Positions 13,163-62,391 of a stretch of 64,000 nucleotides of DNA are shown piece by piece; within the stretch, counting starts at the first letter, position 1; each line of letters begins with the position of its first letter. Position numbers and translations under genes: made by a program. Below the pieces are notes generated by a model that searched no databases, was not told the DNA's origin, and saw nothing but the letters and a program-made list of their open reading frames with translations. The stretch comes from Ostreococcus lucimarinus. Its lineage: Eukaryota. The DNA lies in NCBI GenBank assembly GCA_000092065.1, contig CP000596.1. The stretch is one strand, 5' to 3'.

Positions 13163-13202
<40 letters not shown>

Positions 13203-13569
13203 CGGACTCGGCGGCGGCGGCGGGCTCGGCGGCGGCGAACAATTCGCTATACCCTCGCAATTCTCCGTTCGTGTTTGTCCCTCATACGCTCCACAACTTC
13301 GTCCACCGTTTCGCGGCTTGACGGTGATCGTGAACGTCTGCGAGTACGTCGCCGGTCCGCAAAAAGCCGTGCAACTCCCTTGCCAAAAGCCTACACAATC
13401 CGTTTTCGGCGGCGACGGCGACGACCCCCCGTGGACCCCTCGCAGCGACGACAGCGCGCTCGCGACGACCAACCCGCGCATCATCGTTCGCGTCGCGTCC
13501 CATCGACGTCCGGCGCCATCGCGCGTCGTCGACCGCGACGGCGCGCGTCGTTCGCGAAGCTGACGCGGC

Positions 13570-13571
<2 letters not shown>
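1254..13571 (-). CDS. Giant (about 4,080-4,105 aa) single-exon cell-surface protein with a C-terminal TM anchor. N to C: signal peptide, TSP1-like Cys motif, extensin-like (S)PPPP spacers, LamG/concanavalin-like region, three tandem ~190-aa repeats, EF-hand/dockerin-like Ca-binding pair, ~2,500-aa C-terminal ectodomain. Function unknown.
   Basis: The ORF is uninterrupted for 12,318 nt on the minus strand. The probable true start is the ATG ATG at 13479-13484, giving MMRGLVVASALSSLRGVHG, which looks like a signal peptide. The TSP1-like motif is CVGFWQGSCTAFCGP...RNGGRSCGAYEG...NCEG. SPPPPSPPPP runs are encoded by GGCGGCGGCGGCGAY tracts. The LamG-like signature is FACDGEWHLIAFAVNSVNFMTLYVDPT. 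The Ca-binding loops are DTDGSGGIDKSE and DMDGDGLLNAQE. The C-terminal TM helix is VAIFYTPFAFTLCVALFAFAF, followed by a short tail. Confidence 0.8.
7040..9060 (-). repeat. In-frame tandem array of a roughly 600-bp unit (two near-identical 603-bp copies plus one or two diverged copies) inside the giant gene. Each unit encodes a ~160-aa domain plus a PPPS spacer.
   Basis: The string cgctcgacccagtgaacgtttgtgagagaaccggccttgacagagatatccgcatgcagcgggtactcgggagtctg occurs at 7291 and again at 7894, a period of 603 bp (201 codons). A diverged copy begins at 8494. The duplicated spurious ORFs in the track (MILRFFVRIPN..., MNVCERTGLD...) reflect the same repeat. Confidence 0.85.
13113..13240 (-). repeat. 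Coding G-rich 12-15-nt periodic microsatellite (GGCGGCGGCGGGCTC-like) encoding the (S)PPPP extensin-like spacer. Similar tracts lie at about 7100-7290, 7790-7890, 8395-8490 and 8990-9045.
   Basis: The periodicity is visible directly in the sequence. Read on the minus strand it gives SPPPPSPPPPPSPPPP. Confidence 0.7.
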
Positions 13572-29522: not shown

Positions 29523-31736
29523 CTATTCGTCTCGCGCCCAGACGTCGCTGTAGACTCCGGGACGCGAGCTCTTCGGCGGATTGGCGCGACGACGAATGTA
29601 CGGCCCGCTCGATCTGAACCGACCGGTGCCGTCGTCGGGGAGCGCTAAAGCGACGTCACCGATGAGCGGGGTCGCAGCCTCGGTCCTGTCGGTGCGACGT
29701 CGATTGAATGAAATGGTTGAATCGTCGTCGTCGTTGACGCTGTACGAAAACGCCTTGACGGGCTTGTGCGTCGCCGTGCCGAATTCGTCGGCATGTGTGA
29801 TGTACAAGTCTTCATCGAACGCCAAAAGATCGACGTCTTCGTCTTCGTCGTCGCCGTCTATGATGCCGTAATCATCGACGTCCCGGTTGAACGCGCGACG
29901 AAGCGTGCACACGCTCGCCGCGACGAACGTGATCAACACGACGACGGAAAAAGACAGGAAACGCCAGACATCCGCGTTGACCTGCGCCGAGGCGCGCTTG
30001 TACACTCGAACGTAGTCGACGTAATGAAACATGTCATCGTCGCACTGATTGAGCGCCGCAGGCATGCCGAACGGCGACACCGCGGTGTTCAGGATGAGAT
30101 AAAACGGCCATCGCGGAATGATGGGCACATTAAAGCGCGTCAAGTGATGCACGGGATGACCGTCGACGGTGAACGTCAAGCTATCCTTCGACCACTCCAC
30201 CGCATACGTGTGGAAATCCGCGCTGAAATCGATCGCGGGGTCCATCATGGGCGGGTACGCGCTTCGCGAGAAGCCTTCGGCGCCGCACTCCGCCTTTGGG
30301 GCGAAATGATATCCCGATTCCACCGTTCCCGCACGCGTCCCGGGCCCGCCCAAACCTCTGCCGTACGACTGCATGATGTCAATTTGCCCGCCAAGCGGCC
30401 AGCACGCGCGCTTCGGCACGCTCTTCTCGGGGTCAGGTAACATCCAGTGCTGCGGCCAAACGCCCGGACACTTGGACTCGGGAATCTTCGCGCGAATCTC
30501 AACTCGCCCGTACGTTTGCGTGAACGCCTCTTTCGTGTCCACCCAGCACGACAGGAACGGATACTGATCACCGCGACCACGATGACCCACGGCACCTCCG
30601 TGTGGCGTCGCGGCAGTGCGCACGCCTCGCTGACGCCGCGTCCCGATGACGAGCGCGCCGTCGACGACTTTACACATCTCGGGAACGTAAAACTGTTGCT
30701 GTCCGCCGTGTCGCTCTAAACCTGGCGCGCTCTCGTTCACCTTCGGTCGCCATTTCGATAAATCTAACGCATCACCGTCGAACTCGTCGCTGAACGTCAA
30801 CTCCCATCCCGGCTGTCTCGCGTCCTTCGACGAGGCGCCCTTCGTCGACCCCGGCACGCTTTGCGGAAACCCACGTCGAGGGGTCGCGCCCGCGCGCCGC
30901 CGCGCCGCCGCGCGCTCTTTTATCGCCGCCGCGTTCGCTGGCGGTCGAGTCGGCATCGTTCTCGCCGCCGACGGCGCGTCTTCTTCCCCTCCCGTCGCGC
31001 CGTCGCCCGCGCCGGCGAGCGCGTCTCTCGCGCGACGCAGCGCCTCGTCTGGATCCTCCAACGCCCCCAGCGCCGCCTCATCGCGTTCTCTGCGCATTCG
31101 CGCCCGTCTAATTTTCATCATCTGTCGCTTCGTCGGCGCCCTCGCGCCCAACCGCGCCGTCGAACCGCCCGCGTCGTCTTCGTCCTCCTCCTCGTCCTCG
31201 TACGCCTCCTCGTCCTCGTCCTCGTCCGCCCCGTACATCTCGTCCGGATCGTCCGGCGCCTCGTCCTCGACGATCCTGCGCATCAACGCGTCGTCCATCG
31301 TCCCGAACCGCGTCCCCGCGCTCGCGTCGACGTACCCCGGCGCGTCGCCCGCGTCGTCCCGCGCGTTGGGTGTTGCGTCTCGCGTCGTCCCGTCCCCGCC
31401 CGCGCCTTCGCCCGTCGCGCGTCCCGATCGCGCCCTCGCGAGCGTCGCGAGCGTCACCGCGCACATCGCCGCCCGCGCGCGACGCGACGTCGCGCCGCGC
31501 GTCGCGCGCCGCGATCGGCGCCGCGTCGAATGCGCGGCGTCCATCGCCTCGCGCGCGTCGTCCCGCGTCGACGTCGTCGCCGTCGGTCGCCGCGCGCCGC
31601 CGCGCGCGTCGCCGCCGTCGCGCGTCACGCGCGCGACGTCGCCGTGTGTCGCGCGCCGCGCCGCGCGACCGACGACCGACGCCGCGCGCGGGATGTTGGC
31701 GCCGCGCATAAAACCAATCGCGCGATTCGTTCGCAT
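29523..31736 (-). CDS. GH16-like (laminarinase/beta-1,3-glucanase fold) membrane protein with both catalytic Glu replaced by Gln. It has a long disordered acidic/basic N-terminal region, one TM helix after the GH16 domain, and a C-terminal tail.
   Basis: GH16 signatures are VWPQHWMLP and FHTYAVEWSKDSLTFTVDG. The active-site strand is WPLGGQIDIMQ, where GEIDIME would be expected (CAA/CAG codons at + 30369-30389). The TM helix FLSFSVVVLITFVAASVCTL follows the domain. There is no N-terminal signal peptide in the ORF starting at ATG 31734-31736, so the start may differ. Confidence 0.65.
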   Translation of the reverse strand: MRTNRAIGFMRGANIPRAASVVGRAARRATHGDVARVTRDGGDARGGARRPTATTSTRDDAREAMDAAHSTRRRSRRATRGATSRRARAAMCAVTLATLARARSGRATGEGAGGDGTTRDATPNARDDAGDAPGYVDASAGTRFGTMDDALMRRIVEDEAPDDPDEMYGADEDEDEEAYEDEEEDEDDAGGSTARLGARAPTKRQMMKIRRARMRRERDEAALGALEDPDEALRRARDALAGAGDGATGGEEDAPSAARTMPTRPPANAAAIKERAAARRRAGATPRRGFPQSVPGSTKGASSKDARQPGWELTFSDEFDGDALDLSKWRPKVNESAPGLERHGGQQQFYVPEMCKVVDGALVIGTRRQRGVRTAATPHGGAVGHRGRGDQYPFLSCWVDTKEAFTQTYGRVEIRAKIPESKCPGVWPQHWMLPDPEKSVPKRACWPLGGQIDIMQSYGRGLGGPGTRAGTVESGYHFAPKAECGAEGFSRSAYPPMMDPAIDFSADFHTYAVEWSKDSLTFTVDGHPVHHLTRFNVPIIPRWPFYLILNTAVSPFGMPAALNQCDDDMFHYVDYVRVYKRASAQVNADVWRFLSFSVVVLITFVAASVCTLRRAFNRDVDDYGIIDGDDEDEDVDLLAFDEDLYITHADEFGTATHKPVKAFSYSVNDDDDSTISFNRRRTDRTEAATPLIGDVALALPDDGTGRFRSSGPYIRRRANPPKSSRPGVYSDVWARDE

Positions 31737-52388: not shown

Positions 52389-55300
52389 TTAGATCTCGGC
52401 CGAGGTGGAGACGTCGAGGATTCGACGGCGAATGACGCGGTCGGCGACGGCGAGTTGGGCGTCGGCGACGGAGGCTCGAACGGCGCGAATCGCGGATGCG
52501 GTCGTGGCGATGATGGCGATCGCGCCGAGAGGCGATTTGGGGGGTAACGTTCCCGCGCGAATGTGCGCGGAGAGGGCGTAGATGGCGTACACGGTGGGGA
52601 TGGCTTGGAAGACGTAAAAGGCGACGACGGCGAGGCGTTGCGACGCGGCGTACGCGACGGTTTCGTAGTGAGGAAAACCGCTCGCCGTTCGGGCGAATGT
52701 GCGGAAGTGTACCGTGGCGTCGCGGAGTTCGGTGATGAGCGAACACGCGATTGCGACGACGAAAACGTCGTGGTGCAACGCGAGGAGCGTGACGGCCAAA
52801 GCGACGACGCGGCGAAACATCTCGCCGCGCTCGCGGCGGGCGCCGTCGACGACGACACGACCGACCATCACCATGACGTACACCTTGAGTAACTCCACCG
52901 CAGCTAACTTTCCAGCCTGCTTTCTTTCGTTCGGAAGTATCCACGAGATGGCGGCGGCGCGCACGTTTTGCGTGTCGTCGATGAAGCGATACGCCGCCGT
53001 GCCGACGGCGGCGGCGACGACTGCCTTGGTCAACGGGACGCTGAGCGCCAAGGAACGTTCCATGAGCGTGCCGTGTGCGCTCGATGCTTCGGCGAGCTTG
53101 ACTTTACTAACCTTTTTACCGAGCTGCGGCAACGCCACGCTCGAGACGACGGCGGCTAAGAAGGTCGCGCAGCTAAAGACTGCGACGACGCCGACGAGCA
53201 GAGGCACAGCCATCGGGAGCATTTCCGTCACTGTTGAAGGATTGCGCTGCGCGAACATCGCACAGATGGCCACTACCACGGCTAAGTATTGAAATTCCGG
53301 CGCGATGGACGAGGTAGAAACCTCGCTTCTAGATGCATCGTCGCTCTTCTTGACCCACGTCATTTGCAAATCGTAAATCAACTTGTTCGCAAACGCAGCC
53401 TCGCAATACGCAAAGTAAAACTCAAACATGCGCAAAAACTTTCGTGAGTAGCCCATAGAAAGGATTCGTTGGGCGTGATGCATCATACGCTCGCGCCACA
53501 ATCGCAAAGTGACGGCATAATGCAAGCCGATATCGTCGTATCCCTCGAGCACGAGACCACGCGGCGAAGCGCTCTTCATCGCCCCCACCGACGGCAAGTG
53601 GCCACCTGGGAAAATGTACGCACGAATGAAGTCGCTTTCACTGTTGCAGTATGACTCGTAGCGGCCGTCCGGCATAGTGATGACTTGGATCGCGGCTCGC
53701 CCGCCGGGTTTCAGCACTCTGTGCACGGTGCCAAAGAACGTCGGCAAGTGTTCGTGTCCGACCGCCTCAAGCATTTCAATCGACACCACCTTGTCGAACG
53801 TTCCTTGCACATCGCGGTAGTCACAAATGACGATGTCGATCAAGTGTGACAAACCGGCGGCTTTGACGCGCGCCGTTGCTTCGGCGTGCTGCTCGTGCGA
53901 CAGTGTCAAACCAGTGACATGGCAATTCTTCTCGCTCGCCATGCGAATCGCGCACGTCCCCCAACCGCAGCCAATCTCAAGCACGCGATCGCCTGGCTTA
54001 ATACCCGCTCGAGCGATCATGGCGTCTATCTTTAAATACTGCGCCTCTTCCAAGTGCTTTTCTTGGGCCTCGAACGTCTTGAACTTCTTCAAAACGTCTA
54101 CGGACATCGCAGCGTCGTCGATAGCGCCGTGAATGGCGCTCGAGTACAACATGGTGTCATCCAAAAACAGCTTGTAGAACTCGTTTCCAGCGTCGTAGTG
54201 GTACTCTATGTTTTTACGAGATCCTTCTTTCGTGTTACTTAACGCCTTGTGTGCTGCCATCTCCATTTGCGCTCCTACCCAGTTAACCGCCTCCGTGAGG
54301 AGACCCACTGGGTCGAGACGCATCTTCGGCTTACAGCTCTCCGTCTCTGCGCCAGAAGCCGCGGGATGGCCTTTGCAAATCATGTCCATGAACCCAATTA
54401 AATCCACGTCGAAATCTCCGTTCATATAACACTCACCAAGACCGATATCTGCGCGCAAAATCGTTTGCATGAAGAGTCTTTGGTTGAATACCGTCATGGT
54501 AATCGTCTCCGACGACGCGTTGGCCTCTTTACCCATCATAAGACGTTCGCTTCCATCCGGTAAAATCATGCGGAGTCGTTTGTCGGCTGGTAACCACCCC
54601 ACGCACGCGCGCTGGAAAAGCGGTAAGACCATCTTCGTGCTCATGGACAACTTTGGATCGCACGACCGCGGCATCCACGGCACGGATGACTTGCCGAGCA
54701 TTTTGTCCACACAATCAACCGCTGATTTGATACCATCCTCGTGAAATCCGTAGCCGCACCACGCGCCGCAAAACCAAACCCGGTCTTTACCTTGTAACGC
54801 CTTGATCTCCTCCTGCGCCGCGATCGCGGCTTTGTTAAATAACGGATGCGCGAGCGTGACTTTGTGTTCGACCGAGCCTGCCTTCGGCTCGCGCGGCGGG
54901 TTCAGCGTGACGAACAAATCCTTCGTCCCAGGGGCGAGGTTTTGCAACAAGTTGACCCAGTAAGTCACACAAACGCTTCGATTTGCGGCTTCTTCGGCGG
55001 GAATGCCTAAGCGATCGCCGCGAAGGCAGTTCCACGATGCCCAGGCATCTTTGTTCCGCGGCATCATTGTTTCGTCGGTGTGCAAATACACGTCATTCTC
55101 TTGATACTTCACCGCCGACAGAGCCGAGACTTCTTCCTCGCTCGCAGCTTTGCCAAGTATTTGTAACGCTTGATCGCTATGGCACGCGAAAACGACGTCG
55201 TCGAAAACCTCGGTGGACTCCTGAACTTTTCCCTTGGCGTCCTCTGTCTTAAAAGTCACGCTCACGCCCCCCGCCACGCGGTACACCTTGGTCACGTACG

Positions 55301-56072
55301 CGCCCTTACGCACGTCTTTGAGCTCGCGCTCAACGGCGTCGACGTAAGCGCTCGATCGACCACTGACGACTCGCCAGAGAGGTCGCTCGATGATGTTTAA
55401 TAAGTGATGGTTCACCCAAAATCGTACGAGCGTGCGCACTGGGAACGCCATCGCGTCGTCGTCGCTGCAGCTCCAAATCGCCGCACACATCGGCACCACG
55501 TACGACTCTTGAAAGAACGCCGAGTACTTGCGAGCTTTGAGGTACTCACCCAAAGAGACGTCCGCGAACTCGCTCGCGCGTTCCGGCGCCAAAACCTCTG
55601 GCGCCTCGCGACCAAAACGTAGAATCTCCCGAATCATATTCAAAAACCGTCCGCTCATCGCGTTCGACTTTTGCGCGAACACGCCTTTCAGTCCTATGCT
55701 CCCCCACTCGACGTCTCCCGTGGACAATGAAAACGACATGTCGCTCGGTTCGCTCTCGACGCCGAGCTCGCCGAACAGGCCCACCAGGTGCGGGTACGTC
55801 GTCAGGTTGAACACCTGGAAGCCCAAATCCACGTCGCACTTCGCCGTGCTCGAGTATTGCGTCAGTGCGTGTCCACCGAGCTTCGTCGACGCTTCGAACA
55901 GCGTCACCGCGCCGCACGAGGGCGTCGAGGGCGCGCTTTGCGCTTTTACACTTTTTGGTCCGCCGCCGGCGTCGTCGGCGTTCTTTTGGAGTAAATACGC
56001 CGCCGACAGGCCGCTGACGCCGCCGCCGATGACGGCGACGCGTTTACCGCGTGTGGTGGCTTCGTCCTTCAT
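52389..56072 (-). CDS. CFAS: Tri-domain fusion of 1,227 aa: N-terminal FAD-dependent amine-oxidase-like domain, a cyclopropane-fatty-acyl-phospholipid synthase (CFAS, SAM methyltransferase) domain, and a C-terminal ~330-aa polytopic membrane domain
   Basis: The FAD Rossmann motif is KRVAVIGGGVSGLSAAYLL. The CFAS region reads NIEYHYDAGNEFYKLFLDDTMLYSSAIH…VLEIGCGWGTCAIRMASEKNCHVTGLTLSHEQ…FDKVVSIEMLEAVGHEHLPTFF…LKPGGRAAIQVIT. After it come six or seven hydrophobic helices (LAVVVAICAMFAQ…, MAVPLLVGVVAVFSCATFLAAVV, VVALAVTLLALHHDVFVVAIACSL, LAVVAFYVFQAIPTVYAIYAL…). Confidence 0.85.
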   Translation of the reverse strand: MKDEATTRGKRVAVIGGGVSGLSAAYLLQKNADDAGGGPKSVKAQSAPSTPSCGAVTLFEASTKLGGHALTQYSSTAKCDVDLGFQVFNLTTYPHLVGLFGELGVESEPSDMSFSLSTGDVEWGSIGLKGVFAQKSNAMSGRFLNMIREILRFGREAPEVLAPERASEFADVSLGEYLKARKYSAFFQESYVVPMCAAIWSCSDDDAMAFPVRTLVRFWVNHHLLNIIERPLWRVVSGRSSAYVDAVERELKDVRKGAYVTKVYRVAGGVSVTFKTEDAKGKVQESTEVFDDVVFACHSDQALQILGKAASEEEVSALSAVKYQENDVYLHTDETMMPRNKDAWASWNCLRGDRLGIPAEEAANRSVCVTYWVNLLQNLAPGTKDLFVTLNPPREPKAGSVEHKVTLAHPLFNKAAIAAQEEIKALQGKDRVWFCGAWCGYGFHEDGIKSAVDCVDKMLGKSSVPWMPRSCDPKLSMSTKMVLPLFQRACVGWLPADKRLRMILPDGSERLMMGKEANASSETITMTVFNQRLFMQTILRADIGLGECYMNGDFDVDLIGFMDMICKGHPAASGAETESCKPKMRLDPVGLLTEAVNWVGAQMEMAAHKALSNTKEGSRKNIEYHYDAGNEFYKLFLDDTMLYSSAIHGAIDDAAMSVDVLKKFKTFEAQEKHLEEAQYLKIDAMIARAGIKPGDRVLEIGCGWGTCAIRMASEKNCHVTGLTLSHEQHAEATARVKAAGLSHLIDIVICDYRDVQGTFDKVVSIEMLEAVGHEHLPTFFGTVHRVLKPGGRAAIQVITMPDGRYESYCNSESDFIRAYIFPGGHLPSVGAMKSASPRGLVLEGYDDIGLHYAVTLRLWRERMMHHAQRILSMGYSRKFLRMFEFYFAYCEAAFANKLIYDLQMTWVKKSDDASRSEVSTSSIAPEFQYLAVVVAICAMFAQRNPSTVTEMLPMAVPLLVGVVAVFSCATFLAAVVSSVALPQLGKKVSKVKLAEASSAHGTLMERSLALSVPLTKAVVAAAVGTAAYRFIDDTQNVRAAAISWILPNERKQAGKLAAVELLKVYVMVMVGRVVVDGARRERGEMFRRVVALAVTLLALHHDVFVVAIACSLITELRDATVHFRTFARTASGFPHYETVAYAASQRLAVVAFYVFQAIPTVYAIYALSAHIRAGTLPPKSPLGAIAIIATTASAIRAVRASVADAQLAVADRVIRRRILDVSTSAEI

Positions 56073-56242: not shown

Positions 56243-57712
56243 CTACGTCCACACGATGTGCCGGTCGGAGGTGACCTCGTATCGGCGCTGGTCCACGAGG
56301 CGACGCTTTACGTGGTCGCATCGAAGGTCGGGGTGCGGGAACCGCGCGAGGTCGGCCACGCCGTCGTGGTCGAAATCGGTGGCGGATCGTAATGGAATGG
56401 CGGTCGTGGCGTCGGGCCCGATTCCGAGCGCGGCTTCGGCGTTGTGCTTGGTTTCGAGGACGTGCTGGAGGAATTGTTCCTTGTCGCGCGCGTCTCCGCA
56501 ATACGACGCCGTGACGGTGTGCGCGCCTGGGAACGTACCATCGTCTCCCGCGTTGGCGGTGATGAAATTTCCCGATTCTGCGGTGCTCATGGCGTGGATG
56601 TGGAACTCTCCCGCCGTCGTCGGCACGAGAACGTAGTTGAAGTAACTCTGCTCCGGAAATTCGCCGTAGTTCACCTTGGATACTAATCGACTCTCCCCCT
56701 CGAGCCATCGCTCGCACAAACTCACGCTCCGCGTCGTGGCTGGGAAAATGACGAGCTTCGTGTTCATGTTTCCTTGCGCCTCGAACTCGTTACCGACGTC
56801 TGAGCTCACGACGACGTCGTACTTTTCGAGCGCGCTCGTCCACGCTTCGGTTGGATCGGACAAAAACACCGTGTCCGAATCGAGCATCACCACTGGGATG
56901 CGCGCTTTCAGTAATTCTAAGGCCGCGTGTACCTTGCGCCACGACATGGCGTCGCGCGCGACGCCATCGTTCGGATCTTGCCCGTACGCCCGCGCGAAGT
57001 CGGCGTCGTAAAAGCAATCCACGCCGCGATGCGCCTCGCACGATCGCTGCGTCTCCGTGTCGTACGTCAGCACCGTGACGTGCGGCAACAACGCCGGTGC
57101 CCATCGTTTAACGCTCTGAATCTGCAAATACGTCATCCCCCACTCGAACGGCTTGGTGAGGATTAATATCCGCGCGTCGTCGCTCGCCCGCTGCGTCTCT
57201 CGCACGTGCGTCCGCAGCCCCGGCACGCCGCGTCCCGGCGACCGCAGTCCCGGCACGCGCGTGCGCAGCGATATCCTATTTATCACATCCGCCTTCGCCG
57301 GCGCCCGCATCCGCGCTTCCGCGCTCAACGGCGCTCCGAAAAAGTTCCCTCGCTCGTTCGCCGTCCCGCCCAGCCTCGCCGTCGCCCTCGATCGCCCCGC
57401 CGCGCCCTCTCGCACCGCCGCGACCGCGAGCGCGCACGCCAGCGCGACCGCCACCGCGACCGCGATCCCCGAGCCGCGCGTTCGCGCGCCGATTCGCCTC
57501 GCGCGGCGCACCTCGGCGACGCGTTCGTCCTCAACACCATTCGCTTCCCGCGCGCGCGACTCCGTCCCGTACGCCGTCGACGCGCCGCGCGCCATCAGCC
57601 CCGTCGCGGGGTCCTCGCTCGACATCTCCGCGCGTCGACGCTCGCGCGCGCGCGCGTCGCGGTGTGCCGCGCGCGTCGCCCGCGCGCCGCGCGAAGATGT
57701 CGTAACACCCAT
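56243..57712 (-). CDS. Type-II membrane nucleotide-diphospho-sugar glycosyltransferase (Nucleotid_trans/GT77-like) with a DxD motif
   Basis: The N-terminal cytosolic tail is followed by a signal anchor (IAVAVAVALACALAVAAV). The catalytic region contains IPVVMLDSDTVFLSDPTEAW (DxD), VVVSSDVGNE and KLVIFPATTRS. An alternative ATG lies at 57623-57625. Confidence 0.55.
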   Translation of the reverse strand: MGVTTSSRGARATRAAHRDARARERRRAEMSSEDPATGLMARGASTAYGTESRAREANGVEDERVAEVRRARRIGARTRGSGIAVAVAVALACALAVAAVREGAAGRSRATARLGGTANERGNFFGAPLSAEARMRAPAKADVINRISLRTRVPGLRSPGRGVPGLRTHVRETQRASDDARILILTKPFEWGMTYLQIQSVKRWAPALLPHVTVLTYDTETQRSCEAHRGVDCFYDADFARAYGQDPNDGVARDAMSWRKVHAALELLKARIPVVMLDSDTVFLSDPTEAWTSALEKYDVVVSSDVGNEFEAQGNMNTKLVIFPATTRSVSLCERWLEGESRLVSKVNYGEFPEQSYFNYVLVPTTAGEFHIHAMSTAESGNFITANAGDDGTFPGAHTVTASYCGDARDKEQFLQHVLETKHNAEAALGIGPDATTAIPLRSATDFDHDGVADLARFPHPDLRCDHVKRRLVDQRRYEVTSDRHIVWT

Positions 57713-57822
57713 CGACGGCGCGACACAAATCGTCGCGCGAGCGCGCGCGAGCGTCGCGCTCGACGCCCGGCGCCGACTCGAGCGACGCGCGAACGCGATC
57801 GACGCGCGATCGACGACGCGCG

Positions 57823-59406
57823 ATGGCGCGAACGGAGCGCACGGCGCTGCTGCGCGGCGATGAAGACGTGGAAATCGCGTTGAAAACGCGTCGCGGCGAC
57901 AAAGACGCGTCCGCGGACGACGCGCGCGAGGCTCTCGGGCGACGCGAGAGGCGCGCGCGCGAGTCGAACGGTGGCGCGGAGGCGTCGACGAGCGCGCGCG
58001 GGATGAAGACGGCGCGCGCGGTGGTGGTGGGGACGTTGGCGGCGGGGGCGATCGCGGCGGGCGTCGCGGCGTTCGCGGCGTCGCCGCGCGCGGCGTCGAT
58101 GACGGCCGATCGCGCGTTCGCGTCGCTCGGTGAGCGAGGAATGGCGATGTTGGGCTCGAGCGAGGGCGCGGGTCGCGACGCGAGACCGGTGCCGGTGCTG
58201 TCGAAACGATTTCCGGGATACGCGGCGCCGTTTAGCGGACGTTTCGAACGCATCGGCGAGTGGCCCGAGCACTGGTTGGTGAAGTGCTCGAAGCACGTGG
58301 TGTGCGAGCAATCACACTTGGGAGCGTTTTTGGGGTCTCGTGACGCGCCCGCGCCGTATGCTAACCCGCTCGGGCACGGGCTGCCGCGTGGATACGTGCG
58401 GCCAGACCAGGCGCGCATAAACGAGTTCATCTCGACGTGGGACAGCAACGCTAGACAGGCGCACGGGGGGGTGTATGAGCTGCCGCAAGCTGGCAAGGCT
58501 AAAATGGTCGCGATGGCGCATAATTCTGCGTACTTTTACAACTTTGTGCACGTGCCAAAGGCGGGCGGGTCGTATTTTTCCATCACCGTCTTGATGGAAG
58601 CCCTGGAGCGCAGCGGTGAGCATCACGGGTATCCGTACAAACTCACGCACGAGCCCGTATCGCACTGGATCACGCTTCCACAGGTGGATCTTACGCAGAC
58701 AAACGTGAAGGAGACGTATACACATTTCCAGGAAGGGAAGCCGGAGGGCATTTTTGGACCCGAAAATACCAAACAAATGTATAAAGAAGGCAAGCGGATG
58801 TTCGGAAAGGGCCAGTTCGGCATGGGACTGTGCGGAGTTATTCACGCACCGTGCGTGTACTTGACTGTGTTGCGCGATCCGGTGGAACGTTACTTGAGTC
58901 ATTACAAGTACTCGTGCTTGGCCGGGTCTGAGGGCGCCGCGCAGTGGTTACCCGAGTGGAAAGAACTCGACCGTTGCCCGTTGGATCCGATCGAGTTCAT
59001 GGACTACCTCGGACCAAACCTGGACTGGACGATCGAGCTCGCCCCTGGCGCGAAGAACGCGCAAGAGCGCATGGAGACAGCCAAAAGAAATCTCGACAGT
59101 AACTGCTTGCGATACCTCATACTCGAGAAGTACGAAGACGGGTTGGATAAACTCGGCGCGACGTACGCCGATTTCTTATTTTTGAACAAAGAGCCCGCGA
59201 AAGAAAGGCACAAAAAAAAAAACGAAAAGGCCAAAAACGCCGGGCACGGCGTGAGCGAAGGCGAGCAAGACAGGTTTGACATCTACATGAAGAACCAAAC
59301 CATCGTCGACGCCATCGCCGCGCGTCACGCAAAGATGAAGGAAGTGTACGACTACGCGGTCGCCAAATACGAAGCCAACTGGGCGCGCGCGCCGGGGAGC
59401 TGCTAA
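57823..59406 (+). CDS. Type-II membrane carbohydrate sulfotransferase, paralog 1 (Sulfotransfer_2/HS6ST-Gal3ST-like)
   Basis: The signal anchor is AVVVGTLAAGAIAAGVAAFAA. The 5'-PSB motif is FVHVPKAGGSYF. The 3'-PB motif is YLTVLRDPVERYLSHYKYSCL. There are conserved luminal Cys. Confidence 0.7.
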   Translation: MARTERTALLRGDEDVEIALKTRRGDKDASADDAREALGRRERRARESNGGAEASTSARGMKTARAVVVGTLAAGAIAAGVAAFAASPRAASMTADRAFASLGERGMAMLGSSEGAGRDARPVPVLSKRFPGYAAPFSGRFERIGEWPEHWLVKCSKHVVCEQSHLGAFLGSRDAPAPYANPLGHGLPRGYVRPDQARINEFISTWDSNARQAHGGVYELPQAGKAKMVAMAHNSAYFYNFVHVPKAGGSYFSITVLMEALERSGEHHGYPYKLTHEPVSHWITLPQVDLTQTNVKETYTHFQEGKPEGIFGPENTKQMYKEGKRMFGKGQFGMGLCGVIHAPCVYLTVLRDPVERYLSHYKYSCLAGSEGAAQWLPEWKELDRCPLDPIEFMDYLGPNLDWTIELAPGAKNAQERMETAKRNLDSNCLRYLILEKYEDGLDKLGATYADFLFLNKEPAKERHKKKNEKAKNAGHGVSEGEQDRFDIYMKNQTIVDAIAARHAKMKEVYDYAVAKYEANWARAPGSC

Positions 59407-59436
59407 TCAGATCCCAAAATTAGAACCATAACTGTA

Positions 59437-59466
59437 ACATCAACGCGCATCAACGCGCATCAACGC
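59437..59466. repeat. (CATCAACGCG)x3 tandem decamer between the two sulfotransferase paralogs, just downstream of a TGTAA poly(A)-type signal
   Basis: The sequence reads ctgtaacatcaacgcgcatcaacgcgcatcaacgcg. Confidence 0.5.
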
Positions 59467-59708
59467 GCTGGATGGAGCGCGCGTCCAAAGTCCAAAATCG
59501 CCGAGCGCGCCGCCGGCGCCTCCGTCTCGTCGATGTCTGCTCGCGCCTCACTGCGCCGCGCGCGGCGTCTCGCGCGAACGCCCACGGCTCGAACGCGCGT
59601 CTAAAACGCTTTCGAGCGCGAGCGACGCCTCCGCGTTCGCGAGCGATCGCCGGCGACGCCCCGAGCGACGATCTCTCGCGGCGGGCGGGGCGTAACACCC
59701 TCTGGACG

Positions 59709-61157
59709 ATGACGAAAGAAACGAGCGCCCACAACGCCGAGCGCGCGCCGTTGGTCGTGAAAACCACCGCGCGCGATGCGGTGGACGTAGAGATTGCCGA
59801 TCGCGCGCGTCACGCGGGCGGTGAAGGCGAAGCAACGCCGACAGCGCGAGGAAAGTGGTCGATCGCGGGCAGAGCGGCGTTGGCGGTGGCGTGCGCGACG
59901 TTCGCGGCGGTGGGCGTCGCGCGCGCGTCCACCGTTCGTCGCGGTGGTGAGGTCGTGACGTTGTTCCCCGAACTAGGTGGGGTTTCGGAGTGGCGCAGGG
60001 ACTTCGTGGCGGGGAAGATTGCGCCGGGGCGGAAGTTTAGCGACACGGTGCCGAGCAAGACGTGCGTGCGACAAACGAGCCGGAATAGATTGGAGGACGT
60101 GGAAAAGTATTACATCGTGAGGGCGATGAATCACGAAAACGAGCTGCATAAGGGTAATAAAACGATCGCGGCGATGCCGACGTACGATCACATAAAGGCG
60201 GAGTCGATGTTCATGACGGGCATGGTGAACAAGAATTCAGAGTCGCCGTACATGTTGCCGTCAAGCGGGTACGAGAAGAGCATCAAGCAGTCCGGAAACT
60301 CGGCGATGATGTATAATTTCGTGCACATTCCCAAGGCTGGGGGGACGTACTTGTGCGAAGTTTTGCAGCAGGTGCAATCTCATTTGGACGCTCGACACGG
60401 GAGCGTCTTTGGAAATTACAACCTGTACCGCGACCCATGGTCCATGAAACCGCTCTTAGACGCCACGTCGCGCAATGTTTGGCAAACCACGCATCTCATG
60501 AAAAGTAAGCTCAAGGCGTTTACCGACGAAAATCTGGCGAGAGGCTACGCCAAGGGCCAGCGGATGATGTCGAAGGGGTCGTATAATATGGGCTTGTGCT
60601 CAACCACGGAGGCGCCGTGCATGTACCTCACCGTTTTACGAAATCCCTTTCAGCGCTTTATGAGTCACTACAAGTATTCTTGCCTCGAAGGCGCGGAGAA
60701 CCGAGCGATGTGGATGCCGGCTTGGAAAAAGCAAGGCTCGTGTCCACTCAACCCATTGGAATGGTTTTACTTCACGCAAGGCGACGATTGGACGCATCTG
60801 ATCGCCCCGGGGGCGTTCCCGCGTGACTCCCAGTGTCACATCGACGCCGCGAAGAATAATTTAATGAGTGGTTGCATGCGATACTTGATCACGGAGAACT
60901 TGCACGACGGATTAGCCAAGCTTAAGAATAAGCTTCCAGATTTCGCGACGTTGGATCTCAACGCCGTCAAGTCGCTCTTCAAGAATGACAGCGCTGGTCG
61001 ATTAACGCCGGCGCTGCAAGCGAGGTTGAAGCGGTACGAGGAAGATAAGAACATGATGCACCAGATCAAACAAGGACTGTGGCATCAAACGAAAATTTAC
61101 AACTTTGCCGTAGAGAACTACGAAAAGTCGTGGGACAGAGACATTCAGACGTGCTGA
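59709..61157 (+). CDS. Type-II membrane carbohydrate sulfotransferase, paralog 2, a tandem duplicate of 57823-59406
   Basis: The protein has FVHIPKAGGTYL and YLTVLRNPFQRFMSHYKYSCL, and is collinear with paralog 1 along its whole length (…CMRYLITENLHDGLAKL vs …CLRYLILEKYEDGLDKL). The start ATG 59709 aligns with the paralog-1 N-terminus (…DVEIA…). An alternative ATG lies at 59472. Confidence 0.7.
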   Translation: MTKETSAHNAERAPLVVKTTARDAVDVEIADRARHAGGEGEATPTARGKWSIAGRAALAVACATFAAVGVARASTVRRGGEVVTLFPELGGVSEWRRDFVAGKIAPGRKFSDTVPSKTCVRQTSRNRLEDVEKYYIVRAMNHENELHKGNKTIAAMPTYDHIKAESMFMTGMVNKNSESPYMLPSSGYEKSIKQSGNSAMMYNFVHIPKAGGTYLCEVLQQVQSHLDARHGSVFGNYNLYRDPWSMKPLLDATSRNVWQTTHLMKSKLKAFTDENLARGYAKGQRMMSKGSYNMGLCSTTEAPCMYLTVLRNPFQRFMSHYKYSCLEGAENRAMWMPAWKKQGSCPLNPLEWFYFTQGDDWTHLIAPGAFPRDSQCHIDAAKNNLMSGCMRYLITENLHDGLAKLKNKLPDFATLDLNAVKSLFKNDSAGRLTPALQARLKRYEEDKNMMHQIKQGLWHQTKIYNFAVENYEKSWDRDIQTC

Positions 61158-61227: not shown

Positions 61228-62391
61228 CTAGACCGCAGCCGAGCCGATGCCGCCCGTTGTGGCGGCGGCGATCCCCTCCCGATACGCCTCGGCGCGCGCC
61301 TGCTCGAGCGTGTGCCCGCCGCTGCGGAACGAGCTGTACACCCAGCGAATAGCCAAGACGGACAAGACGGAGTCCGCCGCGAACAGCAGCATGACGATGG
61401 TGTGCATGACGCCAATGGTCTTGTTGCCTTGCAGCGCTTCGTTGAGATTCAATATTCCGCACAGCGACCATTTCTGCGCGCCGAACATGTTCGGCGGCGC
61501 CAGGGTGGCGAAGAAGACGAATCCGATGTGCACCATGAACATCAAGAAGAACCAAAGGAACCCGAACGCGCGGTCGGTTTTGCACGAATTATAAACTCGT
61601 CTGTACCACAACATGTAGGCACCGGGGATGCCACACACCATGTATATGAACGCCATGAGAAACGCCGCGAAGTCCATGTGCAAGAACATGCGCGCCATGG
61701 CCACGAAAAAGTTGCTCACGAGGGCGAGCGCGAAGACGCAGTACACCGTGTAACAGAACTTCACGCACGATCGGTGCTGCGGATGAATCTCGTCGGAGAT
61801 GTTGTGGTACGTGAACGCCCAGAACGAGAACGGCCAGTTCGGCGTCTTCCCTCCCCCTCCGCTTCGCGCCGACCGCTCGCGAACCTCCAAGTCGCGCTCT
61901 CGCCGTAAAATTTCCGCCTCGCGACGCTCGAGGTCGCGTCGCGCCGCCGTCAACGTCGCCGCCGACGCGCCACCGCCGCCCGCGCTCGTCCCCATCGCGC
62001 CTTGCGTCCCCCCCACCGCGGACGCGGACGAAGACCCGCCGCCGAACGCGCCCTTAAACGCGCTCGTCGCCGATCGAAACGCCGACCGCCCGCCCTCCGC
62101 GGCCGCCTCCACCCCTCCCGTCGCCCCAGCCCCCGCCGCGACGTCGTACGCCCCGAACGTCGAGTGCGGCGCCCCCCCGCTTCCCACCGCTCGCTCGTAC
62201 GCGCTCTCCGGCATCGGCACGTCCGGCAGCGTCTCGCCGACCCCCCCCGCGCCGCCGCCCTCCGTCGTCGTCGACGCCCCCTCGAACGGGTTACTGAACC
62301 CATCCTGCGACTCGTCGCTCGCGCGTCGCGCGCGTCCGCTCTCGAACGGGTTCGACGCCCGCGCGGGCGTCGTCTCGAACGGGTTGCTCAT
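61228..62391 (-). CDS. SCAMP: Secretory carrier membrane protein (SCAMP)
   Basis: There are three N-terminal NPF repeats (NPFE) and a coiled-coil. The SCAMP box is KTPNWPFSFWAFTYHNISDEI. Four TM helices follow, then a C-terminal tail. Confidence 0.85.
   Translation of the reverse strand: MSNPFETTPARASNPFESGRARRASDESQDGFSNPFEGASTTTEGGGAGGVGETLPDVPMPESAYERAVGSGGAPHSTFGAYDVAAGAGATGGVEAAAEGGRSAFRSATSAFKGAFGGGSSSASAVGGTQGAMGTSAGGGGASAATLTAARRDLERREAEILRRERDLEVRERSARSGGGGKTPNWPFSFWAFTYHNISDEIHPQHRSCVKFCYTVYCVFALALVSNFFVAMARMFLHMDFAAFLMAFIYMVCGIPGAYMLWYRRVYNSCKTDRAFGFLWFFLMFMVHIGFVFFATLAPPNMFGAQKWSLCGILNLNEALQGNKTIGVMHTIVMLLFAADSVLSVLAIRWVYSSFRSGGHTLEQARAEAYREGIAAATTGGIGSAAV

What the first reader, a model, noticed from the sequence alone, without database searches (positions are those of the whole stretch)
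56243..61157. Secretory-pathway glycan-modification block: GT77-like glycosyltransferase divergent from two tandemly duplicated carbohydrate sulfotransferases
Three consecutive type-II (signal-anchor) Golgi-type enzymes sit together. One is a DxD nucleotide-sugar transferase. The other two are paralogous sulfotransferases with the PAPS-binding motifs (I/V)PKAGG(S/T) and LR(D/N)P.(E/Q)R..SHYKY. The glycosyltransferase and ST1 start codons are only 110 bp apart, implying co-regulation. Tandem duplication of the sulfotransferase suggests diversifying substrate specificity. This could be a module for sulfated surface glycans, possibly acting on the HRGP-like giant protein 43 kb away. In prasinophytes such genes have been linked to virus resistance; that connection is speculative here.
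Basis: partly seen in the sequence, partly recalled or inferred. Interest (0 to 1): 0.6.

Follow-up and report, generated by a model that had tools for sequence, protein, structure and literature searches.

The report
Conserved algal glycosyltransferase plus two sulfotransferases
Three neighbouring genes of the tiny marine green alga Ostreococcus lucimarinus encode a sugar-adding enzyme and two anciently duplicated sulfate-adding enzymes of the secretory pathway. All three are real, conserved and uncharacterised, but they are ordinary core-genome genes and nothing ties them to virus resistance.

Summary
Three intronless ORFs at 56243-61157 encode single-pass, N-terminally anchored proteins. 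One is a GT77/PF03407 glycosyltransferase (E 2.5e-38, invariant DSD). The other two are paralogous sulfotransferases (39% identity, E 3e-69) with intact PAPS-binding motifs and a predicted sulfotransferase fold. The closest solved structures are heparan-sulfate 6-O- and 2-O-sulfotransferases.

Two corrections to the gene starts:
- ST2 starts at 59709 (482 aa), an exact match to O. lucimarinus XP_001421913 / UniProt A4S9D1.
- The GT probably starts at 57625, so the two start codons are about 197 bp apart, not 110 bp. Either spacing is typical for this compact genome.

The duplication is old. GT-proximal and GT-distal copies form separate orthologous clades (bootstrap 100 and 99) across Ostreococcus species. 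Relatives on higher-GC contigs carry one long copy.

The head-to-head ST-GT77 arrangement recurs in three distant lineages but is absent in a fourth.

The block lies on a 428-kb chromosome syntenic with O. tauri chromosome 17, not on the small outlier "viral immunity" chromosome. The O. tauri orthologues are not among the published resistance-regulated genes. No prasinovirus relatives were found.

The most likely role is Golgi/TGN sulfation of a glycan. The acceptors, the donor sugar and any functional coupling between the enzymes remain untested. This is a new member of known kinds, of modest interest.

The parts
56243..57625 (-). GT77-family glycosyltransferase CDS, probable 460-aa form starting MSSEDP. 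The open reading frame continues upstream to an ATG at 57712 (489 aa).
   Evidence: PF03407 E 2.5e-38. The upstream ATG is lost in strain variant L002. The N-terminal 29 aa are not conserved. 460-aa forms exist in the protein cluster. Translation checked.
57413..57469 (-). GT signal-anchor / transmembrane segment GIAVAVAVALACALAVAAV
   Evidence: Kyte-Doolittle 19-residue mean of 2.71, the only strongly hydrophobic segment, preceded by RRARRIGARTRG.
56468..57091 (-). GT77 catalytic domain (Pfam Nucleotid_trans, profile positions 2-208 of 208)
   Evidence: The AlphaFold model shows alternating strands and helices over residues 181-323 at pLDDT 70-88; the rest of the model is poor.
56873..56881 (-). 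DxD motif (D278-S-D280 in LDSDTVFL)
   Evidence: Invariant in 12 orthologues. It follows predicted strand E274-277. Coordinates checked.
57626..57822 (.). Divergent intergenic region between the GT and ST1 start codons: 197 bp, or 110 bp if the 57712 ATG is used
   Evidence: Identical among strain variants except for a small indel/SNP patch at 57712-57722. No promoter function was tested.
57823..59406 (+). ST1, the GT-proximal sulfotransferase paralogue, 527 aa
57835..57852 (+). ERTALL, an acidic-dileucine-like motif in the ST1 cytosolic tail
   Evidence: [DE]xxx[LI][LIVM] occurs within the first 40 aa (observed start positions 2-20) in 27 of 56 full-length family members, against 4.1 expected from shuffles. 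Visible in the alignment.
58021..58077 (+). ST1 signal-anchor segment VVVGTLAAGAIAAGVAAFA
   Evidence: Kyte-Doolittle 2.13.
58549..58572 (+). ST1 5'-phosphosulfate-binding loop HVPKAGGS (K246)
   Evidence: Invariant HVPKAGG in 20 relatives. Aligns to HS6ST FLHIQKTGGT.
58870..58911 (+). ST1 3'-phosphate-binding motif LRDPVERYLSHYKY (R351, S359)
   Evidence: R351 and P353 are invariant and S359 is at least 90% conserved in 49 sequences. Aligns to HS6ST YITMLRDPVSRYLSEWKH and HS2ST YINVIRDPIERLVSYYYF.
59438..59467 (+). Three tandem copies of CATCAACGCG in the ST1-ST2 spacer
   Evidence: Function unknown. It lies in the 302-bp gap between the ST1 stop and the ST2 start.
59709..61157 (+). ST2, the GT-distal sulfotransferase paralogue, 482 aa. 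The ORF is open from 59472, but 59709 is the accepted start.
   Evidence: Exact match to XP_001421913.1 / ABP00207.1 / UniProt A4S9D1 'Sulfotransferase' of O. lucimarinus CCE9901. PF03567 20.0 bits, below the cut-off. The ST2 clade has 99% bootstrap.
59739..59756 (+). ERAPLV, the tail motif of ST2
   Evidence: ERAPL[VIL] is conserved in ST2-clade orthologues (listing).
59862..59918 (+). ST2 signal-anchor segment IAGRAALAVACATFAAVGV
   Evidence: Kyte-Doolittle 1.82.
60324..60347 (+). ST2 5'-phosphosulfate-binding loop HIPKAGGT
60636..60677 (+). ST2 3'-phosphate-binding motif LRNPFQRFMSHYKY
61228..62391 (-). SCAMP (secretory carrier membrane protein) gene, tail-to-tail with ST2. It is a neighbour conserved next to the ST in every related locus examined, not a demonstrated part of the module.
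   Evidence: PF04144 E 2.6e-43. Adjacent to the ST in L005, L006, L009, L010, L011 and L013.

Best explanation
The window is from Ostreococcus lucimarinus CCE9901. The three genes encode type II (N-in, catalytic domain in the lumen) membrane enzymes of the Golgi/TGN.

The first is a GT77-family glycosyltransferase. It would use a nucleotide sugar bound through its DSD motif and a divalent cation. The other two are PAPS-dependent O-sulfotransferases of a divergent, largely Mamiellophyceae-centred branch of the Sulfotransfer_2 family. This is the family of the Golgi glycan sulfotransferases HS2ST, HS6ST and CHST8-14.

In each ST, the PKAGG(S/T) loop lysine would bind the 5'-phosphosulfate of PAPS. 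The LR(D/N)P...S motif would bind the 3'-phosphate. Sulfate would be transferred to a hydroxyl of a glycan on a secreted or surface glycoconjugate.

The two STs arose by one tandem duplication. It happened after the split from relatives that carry a single long copy and before the Ostreococcus species diverged. Both copies have been kept as distinct orthologues since, most simply because they sulfate different positions or acceptors.

Shown here: enzyme families, cofactor-binding motifs, fold, membrane topology, age and orthology of the duplication, core-genome location.
Inferred: Golgi/TGN location, a glycan acceptor, distinct specificities.
Only suggested, at roughly 40%: that the GT and the STs act on the same glycan.
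For: Identity of the organism: ST2 is an exact match to XP_001421913.1 / A4S9D1 on a 428,333-bp record.

GT:
- PF03407 at 132.6 bits.
- DSD invariant.

STs:
- Paralogous, E 3e-69.
- HVPKAGG and TVLRxP..R..S.Y.Y are invariant in 20 relatives, together with six invariant cysteines that suit a lumenal, disulfide-bonded domain.
- 32 of 49 family members hit PF03567, best E 3.4e-12.
- The AlphaFold catalytic domain is confident.
- Foldseek against PDB: the top four hits are HS 2-O-sulfotransferase (E 1.3e-5, probability 1.0), followed by HS6ST and cytosolic SULTs.
- A profile search against PDB sequences aligns both PAPS motifs to HS6ST and HS2ST.

Topology: one N-terminal hydrophobic segment in each protein. 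47 of 56 family members have a TM segment upstream of the P-loop.

Duplication: ST1 clade 100%, ST2 clade 99%, single-copy long clade 98%, and ST1+ST2 (with P0045) 93% bootstrap. The same proximal/distal order is seen in O. tauri chromosome 17 and in a third species.

Possible coupling: the head-to-head ST-GT77 pair is also present in three distant high-GC lineages, L009, L010 and L013. There the GT is only 39-47% identical and the ST catalytic domain about 35-42% identical.
Against: - ST1 only just reaches the Pfam gathering score (22.5 against 22) and ST2 falls below it (20.0).
- Identity to any solved sulfotransferase is 14-17%.
- No catalytic base could be assigned. The stretch that the motif spacing places opposite HS2ST's catalytic histidines (by my recollection of that sequence) holds an invariant K329-G330 and no conserved histidine. 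I judged this by eye from motif spacing, not by structural superposition.
- No experiment shows activity, location or acceptor.
- The GT model is poor (pLDDT 54), and its GT77 clade, and so its donor sugar, is undetermined.
- The ST-GT adjacency is embedded in a wider conserved block (SET, SCAMP, ST, ST, GT, amine-oxidase/CMAS fusion, kinase), so adjacency may be plain inherited synteny.
- In one lineage (L011) the ST, SCAMP and CMAS genes are present but no GT77 lies within 8 kb on either side.
Confidence: 0.6

Rival explanations
1. The enzymes are as described, but the adjacency means nothing. The GT77 and the two STs work in unrelated pathways. For example, the GT might arabinosylate hydroxyproline as RRA and XEG113 do, while the STs act on another polymer. 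They sit together only because Mamiellales gene order is conserved and the genome is compact.
For: The whole neighbourhood, including unrelated genes (amine-oxidase/CMAS fusion, protein kinase, SET-domain protein), keeps the same order in O. tauri chromosome 17. Intergenic gaps of 70-302 bp are normal here. Lineage L011 keeps ST, SCAMP and CMAS but has no GT77 within 8 kb. SCAMP is an even more constant neighbour of the ST than the GT is.
Against: The head-to-head ST-GT77 pair persists in three distant lineages (L009, L010, L013). In one of these (L010) two extra genes separate the GT from the CMAS gene. Both enzyme types are lumenal glycan-modifying enzymes.
Confidence: 0.3
2. The STs do not sulfate carbohydrates. 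They act on protein tyrosine (TPST-like), lipids or sterols, or small metabolites in the secretory pathway.
Against: The best sequence and structure relatives are the Golgi glycan O-sulfotransferases HS6ST and HS2ST. The Pfam family hit is Sulfotransfer_2, plus Gal-3-O_sulfotr for 3 members, and not the TPST family. As far as I know, all characterised PF03567 members act on glycans.
Confidence: 0.07
3. The block is part of the prasinophyte glycan-based virus susceptibility/resistance system, like the glycosyltransferase and sulfotransferase genes of the small outlier chromosome (SOC).
For: Literature only. SOC GTs are over-expressed in OtV5-resistant O. tauri (PMC5082852). SOC sulfotransferases are more highly expressed in susceptible lines of O. 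tauri and O. mediterraneus (bioRxiv 10.64898/2026.02.10.705097). A surface sulfated glycan could in principle be a virus receptor.
Against: - The block is on a 428-kb chromosome syntenic with O. tauri chromosome 17. The SOCs are 150 kb in O. lucimarinus and 290 kb in O. tauri.
- It is conserved and orthologous across species, whereas SOC genes are not.
- Yau et al. state that the only non-SOC GTs regulated in resistant lines are on chromosome 2. None of their five regulated chromosome-17 genes is a GT or ST.
- No relatives were found in viral contigs or among prasinovirus proteins.
Confidence: 0.03

Closest known systems
Heparan-sulfate 6-O- and 2-O-sulfotransferases (HS6ST, PDB 5t03/5t05; HS2ST, PDB 3f5f/4ndz), Pfam Sulfotransfer_2 (PF03567)
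   Same: - Type II Golgi-type architecture.
- 5'-PSB loop: xHxPKxGGT, against HS6ST HIQKTGGT.
- 3'-PB motif: YLTVLRDPVERYLSHYKY, against YITMLRDPVSRYLSEWKH and YINVIRDPIERLVSYYYF.
- A C-terminal helical region also aligns with HS2ST.
   Different: - Only 14-17% identity, and sequence E-values against these chains are not significant (0.037 and 2.1).
- At or below the Pfam cut-off.
- Six family-specific conserved cysteines.
- No conserved histidine where the motif spacing would place the HS2ST catalytic histidines (my recollection of that sequence, by eye).
- A conserved [DE]xxxL[LIV] tail motif.
- From my own knowledge, green algae are not known to make heparan sulfate, so the acceptor must differ.
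Plant and algal GT77 glycosyltransferases: RRA1-3 (clade A) and XEG113 (clade C), which are extensin Hyp-beta-arabinofuranosyltransferases; RGXT (clade B), which are RG-II alpha-xylosyltransferases; clade D, of unknown function
   Same: Full-length PF03407 domain at 132.6 bits, DxD motif and type II topology. Ulvskov et al. 2013 report clade A and clade C members in all green algae they analysed, including prasinophytes (PMC3797821).
   Different: The clade was not determined. Both homologue searches returned only Mamiellales-like orthologues; the nearest named one is O. tauri 'Nucleotide-diphospho-sugar transferase' at 63% identity. The protein has a conserved C-terminal extension of about 70 aa. 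Prasinophytes lack the GT75 UDP-Ara mutase, and Hyp-Araf4 was not detected in O. tauri, so an arabinosyltransferase role is uncertain.
Glycosyltransferase and sulfotransferase genes of the Mamiellales small outlier chromosome (the 'viral immunity chromosome')
   Same: The same broad enzyme classes, in the same organisms.
   Different: A different chromosome, conserved synteny and orthology instead of hypervariability, and no reported regulation in resistant lines.

Membership tests
PAPS-dependent sulfotransferase superfamily / Pfam Sulfotransfer_2 (PF03567) | 5'-phosphosulfate-binding loop (PKxGxT/S) with the catalytic lysine | tested here: met
   HVPKAGGS in ST1 (K246) and HIPKAGGT in ST2. 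HVPKAGG is invariant in 20 relatives. K246 is at least 90% conserved and G249 invariant in 49 sequences. The loop aligns to HS6ST HIQKTGGT.
PAPS-dependent sulfotransferase superfamily / Pfam Sulfotransfer_2 (PF03567) | 3'-phosphate-binding motif (strand, then Arg, then helix with Ser) | tested here: met
   R351 and P353 are invariant and S359 at least 90% conserved. The motif aligns to the RDPxxRxxS motif of HS6ST and HS2ST.
PAPS-dependent sulfotransferase superfamily / Pfam Sulfotransfer_2 (PF03567) | Score at or above the Pfam gathering threshold | tested here: inconclusive
   ST1 scores 22.5 bits against a cut-off of 22. ST2 scores 20.0 bits, below it. At family level, 32 of 49 members hit PF03567 at E<=0.01, best 3.4e-12.
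PAPS-dependent sulfotransferase superfamily / Pfam Sulfotransfer_2 (PF03567) | Sulfotransferase (P-loop-like alpha/beta) fold | tested here: met
PAPS-dependent sulfotransferase superfamily / Pfam Sulfotransfer_2 (PF03567) | An identifiable catalytic base (His in HS2ST and HS6ST; Glu in HS3ST, NDST and TPST) | tested here: inconclusive
   There is no invariant His between the two PAPS motifs. The conserved candidates are K329, D289, E370 and E435. No coordinates were available for a superposition.
PAPS-dependent sulfotransferase superfamily / Pfam Sulfotransfer_2 (PF03567) | PAPS-dependent sulfate transfer to a glycan acceptor | not testable with these tools
   This needs enzymology.
Heparan-sulfate 2-O/6-O-sulfotransferases proper (orthology) | Significant sequence relationship to, or orthology with, HS2ST or HS6ST | tested here: not met
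   Profile against PDB sequences gives E 0.037 (HS6ST) and 2.1 (HS2ST), matching only the motif segments. Structural alignments show 14-17% identity. These proteins are fold and family relatives, not members.
CAZy GT77 / Pfam Nucleotid_trans (PF03407) | Full-length PF03407 domain above the gathering threshold | tested here: met
   132.6 bits against 22, covering profile positions 2-208 of 208. All 16 orthologues carry PF03407.
CAZy GT77 / Pfam Nucleotid_trans (PF03407) | DxD metal / nucleotide-sugar binding motif after a beta-strand of a GT-A type fold | tested here: met
   D278-S-D280 is invariant and follows predicted strand 274-277. The fold itself is modelled only at pLDDT 70-88 for residues 160-340 and poorly elsewhere.
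CAZy GT77 / Pfam Nucleotid_trans (PF03407) | Assignment to a functional clade (A RRA, B RGXT, C XEG113, D unknown), which would predict the donor sugar | not testable with these tools
   No reference GT77 sequences could be retrieved. Both searches returned only Mamiellales-type orthologues. PDB holds no sequence relatives. The supplementary table of PMC3797821 is truncated.
Type II (signal-anchor) Golgi membrane enzymes | Short basic cytosolic N-terminus, a single TM segment, and a lumenal stem plus catalytic domain | tested here: met
   Hydropathy maxima of 2.71, 2.13 and 1.82 at aa 82-100, 67-85 and 52-70, with arginine/lysine-rich tails. Lumenal cysteines are conserved. Actual localisation was not tested.
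SOC-encoded virus susceptibility/resistance glycan genes of Mamiellales | Location on the small outlier chromosome | tested here: not met
   The O. tauri orthologues are on CAID01000017.2, which is chromosome 17. The O. lucimarinus record is 428 kb, against a SOC of 150 kb.
SOC-encoded virus susceptibility/resistance glycan genes of Mamiellales | Differential expression between resistant and susceptible lines | tested here: not met
   Literature only. The non-SOC regulated GTs are on chromosome 2 only, and the five regulated chromosome-17 genes include no GT or ST. This was not tested for O. lucimarinus itself.
Co-regulated divergent gene pair / glycan-synthesis gene cluster | Head-to-head adjacency conserved beyond general synteny | tested here: inconclusive
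   The pair is kept in Ostreococcus species and in three distant lineages. It is absent in L011. The flanking SCAMP and CMAS genes are conserved too.
Co-regulated divergent gene pair / glycan-synthesis gene cluster | Correlated expression of the members | not tested
   No expression data were accessible for these genes.

The most novel reading that the evidence does not exclude
The GT77 and the two sulfotransferases form a dedicated, Mamiellophyceae-specific pathway. It would build a sulfated glycan epitope on the surface glycoproteins of these supposedly 'naked' picoalgae. One example would be sulfated oligosaccharides on the extensin-like SP(n) linkers of giant membrane-anchored proteins such as the 4105-aa ORF in this window. 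ST1 and ST2 would add sulfate at two different positions. The conserved ExxxLL tail would place the STs in a late Golgi/TGN-endosome cycling compartment. Such a glycan would be an unrecognised component of the cell coat and a candidate attachment factor for prasinoviruses.
Probability: 0.15. Interest if true: 0.6.

Novelty: new member of a known kind. Interest (0 to 1): 0.3.

Why it matters
Ostreococcus and Micromonas are described as wall-less and scale-less, yet their genomes keep secretory glycan-modifying enzymes, and what coats their surface is poorly known.

This work defines a conserved, uncharacterised sulfotransferase subfamily. It has about 74 representative sequences at E<1e-30, is centred on Mamiellophyceae, and shows an ancient tandem duplication and frequent pairing with a lineage-specific GT77.

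That gives concrete knock-out targets in O. tauri, which to my knowledge is genetically tractable by homologous recombination. Such knock-outs could test whether sulfated surface glycoconjugates exist and what they do.

The work also separates these core-genome genes from the sulfotransferases and GTs of the small outlier chromosome, which are implicated in virus susceptibility. That prevents a tempting over-interpretation.

Nothing here challenges current understanding. The value lies in annotation and hypothesis generation.

Tried and rejected
- **Direct sequence searches against PDB.** ST1 gave only a chance hit. The GT gave nothing, either as a single sequence or as a profile. Sequence alone therefore cannot name a solved relative; profile and fold searches were needed.
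- **AFDB fold library.** It was not available, so no UniProt-named structural neighbours could be obtained.
- **Placing the GT in a GT77 clade.** Two homologue searches (single sequence, then a 12-sequence profile) returned only 15-16 Mamiellales-type orthologues. The supplementary GT77 table of Ulvskov et al. is truncated in the held copy. The clade remains unassigned.
- **Naming the organisms of distant family members.** Cluster look-ups returned no organism names. I can only call L009, L010, L011 and L013 'high-GC (64-68%) Mamiellophyceae-like' contigs, which is an inference from synteny and GC content.
- **Viral link.** Scans of IMG/VR with the ST and GT profiles were negative. These scans are pattern-limited, so distant relatives could be missed. 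The BFVD fold search gave only generic sulfotransferase folds from Megaviridae and phage entries, and no prasinovirus hit.
- **Literature look-up by accession** (A4S9D1, XP_001421913, ABP00207): no paper mentions them.
- **First phylogeny script.** It timed out. It was rewritten with numpy distances. The tree is neighbour-joining on Kimura distances, not maximum likelihood.
- **One ST as a dead pseudoenzyme.** Rejected, because both clades keep every PAPS-binding residue.
- **The long 561-aa ST2 ORF and the 489-aa GT ORF as the true proteins.** Rejected in favour of the shorter forms.

Full report
**1. What is in the sequence**

An exact-sequence look-up identifies the organism. The 482-aa form of the third protein, starting at 59709, is identical to XP_001421913.1 / ABP00207.1 / UniProt A4S9D1. 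That entry is a "predicted protein" that UniProt auto-names "Sulfotransferase", from Ostreococcus lucimarinus CCE9901, on a 428,333-bp record. The exact ST1 and GT sequences are found only in metagenome and Logan assemblies, not as NCBI proteins. The reference gene models for those two therefore differ from these ORFs or are missing; I could not tell which.

The same five-gene neighbourhood recurs in four marine metagenome or read-archive (Logan) contigs, two of them named TARA, that are nearly identical to the window.

**2. Gene-start corrections**

*ST2.* The reference protein and the metagenome gene calls begin at 59709. Orthologues align from that methionine.

*GT.* The ATG at 57712 is changed to CAA (on the + strand) in strain variant L002, which is otherwise identical over the region. 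The first 29 residues are not conserved in any other species. 460-aa forms exist in the cluster. The GT therefore most likely starts at 57625.

The GT and ST1 start codons are then 197 bp apart rather than 110 bp. Gaps between the other neighbouring genes at this locus are 170, 302, 70 and 232 bp. A short divergent gap is simply how this genome is packed. From my own knowledge, Ostreococcus intergenic regions average about 200 bp.

**3. The glycosyltransferase**

- It matches Pfam Nucleotid_trans (PF03407, the GT77 domain) end to end at 132.6 bits, E 2.5e-38.
- D278-S-D280, within LDSDTVFL, is invariant in 12 orthologues.
- It has one strongly hydrophobic segment (aa 82-100 of the long form, Kyte-Doolittle 2.71), preceded by an arginine-rich tail.
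- The AlphaFold model is weak overall (pLDDT 54). It shows alternating strands and helices at pLDDT 70-88 over residues 160-340, with the DSD directly after strand 274-277.
- PDB holds no sequence relative.
- Both homologue searches returned only 15-16 orthologues. The nearest named one is O. tauri "Nucleotide-diphospho-sugar transferase", 63% identical.

I could not place the protein in GT77 clades A (RRA), B (RGXT), C (XEG113) or D. The literature says clades A and C have members in all green algae analysed. It also says prasinophytes lack the GT75 UDP-arabinose mutase (PMC3797821) and that Hyp-Araf4 was not detected in O. tauri (PMC5371791). Donor and acceptor therefore remain open.

**4. 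The sulfotransferases**

ST1 and ST2 are 39% identical over 315 aa (E 3e-69).

*Pfam.* Individually they sit at the Pfam boundary for Sulfotransfer_2: 22.5 and 20.0 bits against a cut-off of 22. The family-level evidence is solid.

*Conserved residues.* An alignment of 20 close relatives has the following invariant features:
- H-V-P-K-A-G-G;
- T-V-L-R-x-P..R..S-x-Y-x-Y;
- six cysteines, C337, C344, C365, C385, C428 and the C-terminal C527. These suit a disulfide-bonded lumenal domain.

*Size of the family.* A full-library profile search finds 574 representative sequences at E<=1e-3 and 74 at E<=1e-30. Of 49 sampled members, 32 hit PF03567 (best E 3.4e-12) and 3 hit Gal-3-O-sulfotransferase.

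*Fold.* The AlphaFold model of ST1 is confident across the catalytic domain: block-mean pLDDT is mostly above 80, with dips to 64-71, from residue ~200.
- Foldseek against PDB puts heparan-sulfate 2-O-sulfotransferase first (4ndz and 3f5f; E 1.3e-5 to 4.7e-4; probability 1.0), followed by HS6ST and cytosolic SULTs.

*Motif alignment.* The family profile aligns its two motifs to the PAPS-binding elements of solved enzymes:
- FVHVPKAGGT to HS6ST FLHIQKTGGT;
- YLTVLRDPVERYLSHYKY to HS6ST YITMLRDPVSRYLSEWKH and HS2ST YINVIRDPIERLVSYYYF.

*Catalytic base.* This I could not establish. No histidine is conserved between the two motifs. By motif spacing, and from my recollection of the HS2ST sequence, the position of that enzyme's catalytic histidines is occupied by an invariant K329-G330. 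Other conserved candidates are D289, E370 and E435. I had no coordinates for a superposition.

**5. Topology and sorting signal**

Each ST has a single hydrophobic segment: ST1 at aa 67-85 and ST2 at aa 52-70. Of 56 full-length family members, 47 have a TM segment upstream of the P-loop.

There is also an unexpected family trait. The cytosolic tail carries an acidic-dileucine-like motif, [DE]xxx[LI][LIVM], starting within the first 20 residues. Examples are ERTALL in ST1, ERAPLV in ST2, ERARLL and ERAPLV in O. tauri, and ETDRLL and ETDELL in the long forms. It occurs in 27 of 56 members, against 4.1 expected from shuffled tails, and in nearly all of the Mamiellales-like subfamily.

In other eukaryotes such motifs bind clathrin adaptor complexes (my own knowledge). 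That hints at TGN/endosome cycling. This is an inference only.

**6. Age and fate of the duplication**

O. tauri chromosome 17 (CAID01000017.2) has the same gene order: SET, SCAMP, ST (494 aa), ST (481 aa), GT (471 aa), amine-oxidase/CMAS fusion, kinase, desaturase. A third Ostreococcus-like species, L006, has it too.

A neighbour-joining tree of the catalytic domain (304 columns, 42 sequences, 200 bootstraps) gives the following support:

| Clade | Bootstrap |
|---|---|
| GT-proximal copies (ST1 clade) | 100% |
| GT-distal copies (ST2 clade) | 99% |
| ST1 + ST2 together (with P0045) | 93% |
| Single-copy long forms (657-1443 aa, contigs of 64-68% GC) | 98% |

A further lineage also carries both types on the same contigs: P0035 (ST1-like) and P0039 (ST2-like).

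So there was one duplication, older than the Ostreococcus radiation, and both copies were retained.

- ST2 is closer to the single-copy clade than ST1 is (41.7% against 35.4% identity). It also keeps an ancestral cysteine that ST1 has lost. ST1 is therefore the more derived copy.
- Between the clades, 66 catalytic-domain columns are conserved and identical. Six are conserved but different. Twelve and sixteen are conserved in only one clade.
- This fits long-standing division of labour, not ongoing diversification.
- Both STs evolve faster than their neighbours. O. lucimarinus against O. tauri gives ST1 45% and ST2 43%, compared with GT 63%, kinase 67% and CMAS fusion 71%.

**7. Is the GT functionally tied to the STs?**

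*For.* The head-to-head ST-GT77 arrangement also occurs in three distant high-GC lineages:
- L009, start codons about 0.9 kb apart;
- L010, about 1 kb apart;
- L013, about 0.8 kb apart.

In these the GT is only 39-47% identical to the window's, and in L010 two extra genes separate the GT from the CMAS gene.

*Against.* The whole neighbourhood is syntenic, including unrelated genes. SCAMP is an even more constant neighbour of the ST. In lineage L011, the ST, SCAMP and CMAS genes are present but tblastn finds no GT77 within 8 kb on either side.

I rate coupling at about 40%. Expression data would settle it.

**8. Virus resistance and the giant protein**

- The block is not on the small outlier chromosome. 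Its record is 428 kb, while the O. lucimarinus SOC is 150 kb and the O. tauri SOC (chromosome 19) is 290 kb. The O. tauri orthologues are on chromosome 17.
- Yau et al. 2016 state that the only non-SOC GTs regulated in OtV5-resistant lines are on chromosome 2. Their table lists five regulated chromosome-17 genes, none of them a GT or ST.
- A 2026 preprint reports sulfotransferases more highly expressed in susceptible lines, but those genes are on the SOC.
- IMG/VR scans with both profiles were negative.
- A fold search of viral proteins gave only generic sulfotransferase folds, none from prasinoviruses.
- The giant ORF at 1254-13571(-) is real. It is 4105 aa with a signal-peptide-like N-terminus, 34 SP(2+) extensin-like runs and a C-terminal TM segment. 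It is a plausible substrate class for GT77-type enzymes. A distance of 43 kb in a gene-dense genome full of housekeeping genes carries no evidential weight.

**9. Verdict**

The enzyme-class interpretation is supported. The inferences of co-regulation, diversification and virus resistance are not.

These are uncharacterised but recognisable members of known families: GT77, and a divergent Sulfotransfer_2 branch. One of them already carries an automatic "Sulfotransferase" name in UniProt. None appears in the algal sulfotransferase phylogeny I checked, which lists only A4S6Z1 and A4RZY0 for O. lucimarinus (PMC4659905).

Interest is modest. The useful outputs are:
- a defined subfamily;
- the dated duplication;
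- the tail motif;
- a clear separation from the SOC genes.

Noticed in passing
window 57835-57852 (ST1) and 59739-59756 (ST2); also the N-termini of P0003-P0053: The cytosolic tails of this sulfotransferase family carry a conserved acidic-dileucine-like motif, [DE]xxx[LI][LIVM], starting within the first 20 residues (ERTALL, ERAPLV, ETDRLL and others). It occurs in 27 of 56 full-length members, against 4.1 expected from shuffles. It may be an adaptor-binding sorting signal. The GT tails lack it but share a conserved [AS]-Y-G.
   Followed up: partly
window 1254-13571 (-): A giant 4105-aa ORF in the lower-GC part of the window (51-57% GC). It has a signal-peptide-like N-terminus, 34 extensin-like SP(2+) runs (SPPPPSPPPP linkers between globular regions) and a C-terminal TM anchor. 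Pfam gives only sub-threshold EF-hand and CarboxypepD_reg hits. It is probably a giant surface glycoprotein.
   Followed up: partly
window 61228-62391 (-); L005, L006, L009, L010, L011, L013: A SCAMP (secretory carrier membrane protein) gene lies tail-to-tail with the sulfotransferase in every related locus examined, including the lineage that lacks the adjacent GT77. This may be plain synteny or a secretory-pathway association.
   Followed up: partly
window 59438-59467: Three exact tandem copies of CATCAACGCG lie immediately downstream of the ST1 stop codon, in the ST1-ST2 spacer. Function unknown.
   Followed up: no
window 52389-56072 (-): A 1227-aa fusion protein. It combines an N-terminal flavin amine-oxidase / NAD-binding domain, a cyclopropane-fatty-acyl-phospholipid-synthase (CMAS) methyltransferase domain, and a hydrophobic C-terminal region. 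It is conserved next to the block in all Mamiellales-like loci.
   Followed up: no
P0037, P0040, P0041 (L010, L013): In the higher-GC relatives the single sulfotransferase has a very long (about 800-1000 aa) acidic, proline- and alanine-rich lumenal stem between the TM segment and the catalytic domain. This gives proteins of 1285-1443 aa. Gene callers split these genes into several spurious ORFs.
   Followed up: partly
window 57823-59406 and 56243-57712: The exact ST1 and GT protein sequences are absent from NCBI protein records for O. lucimarinus. Several neighbouring reference models are shorter or partial: SCAMP 220 aa partial, CMAS fusion 877 aa partial, AAA ATPase 691 aa against 907 aa. 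This suggests the 2007 reference annotation of this region is imperfect.
   Followed up: no
window 29523-31736 (-): A 737-aa protein with GH16 and SKN1/KRE6-like (beta-glucan synthesis-associated) domains. It is another secretory carbohydrate-active gene in the window, 25 kb from the block.
   Followed up: no
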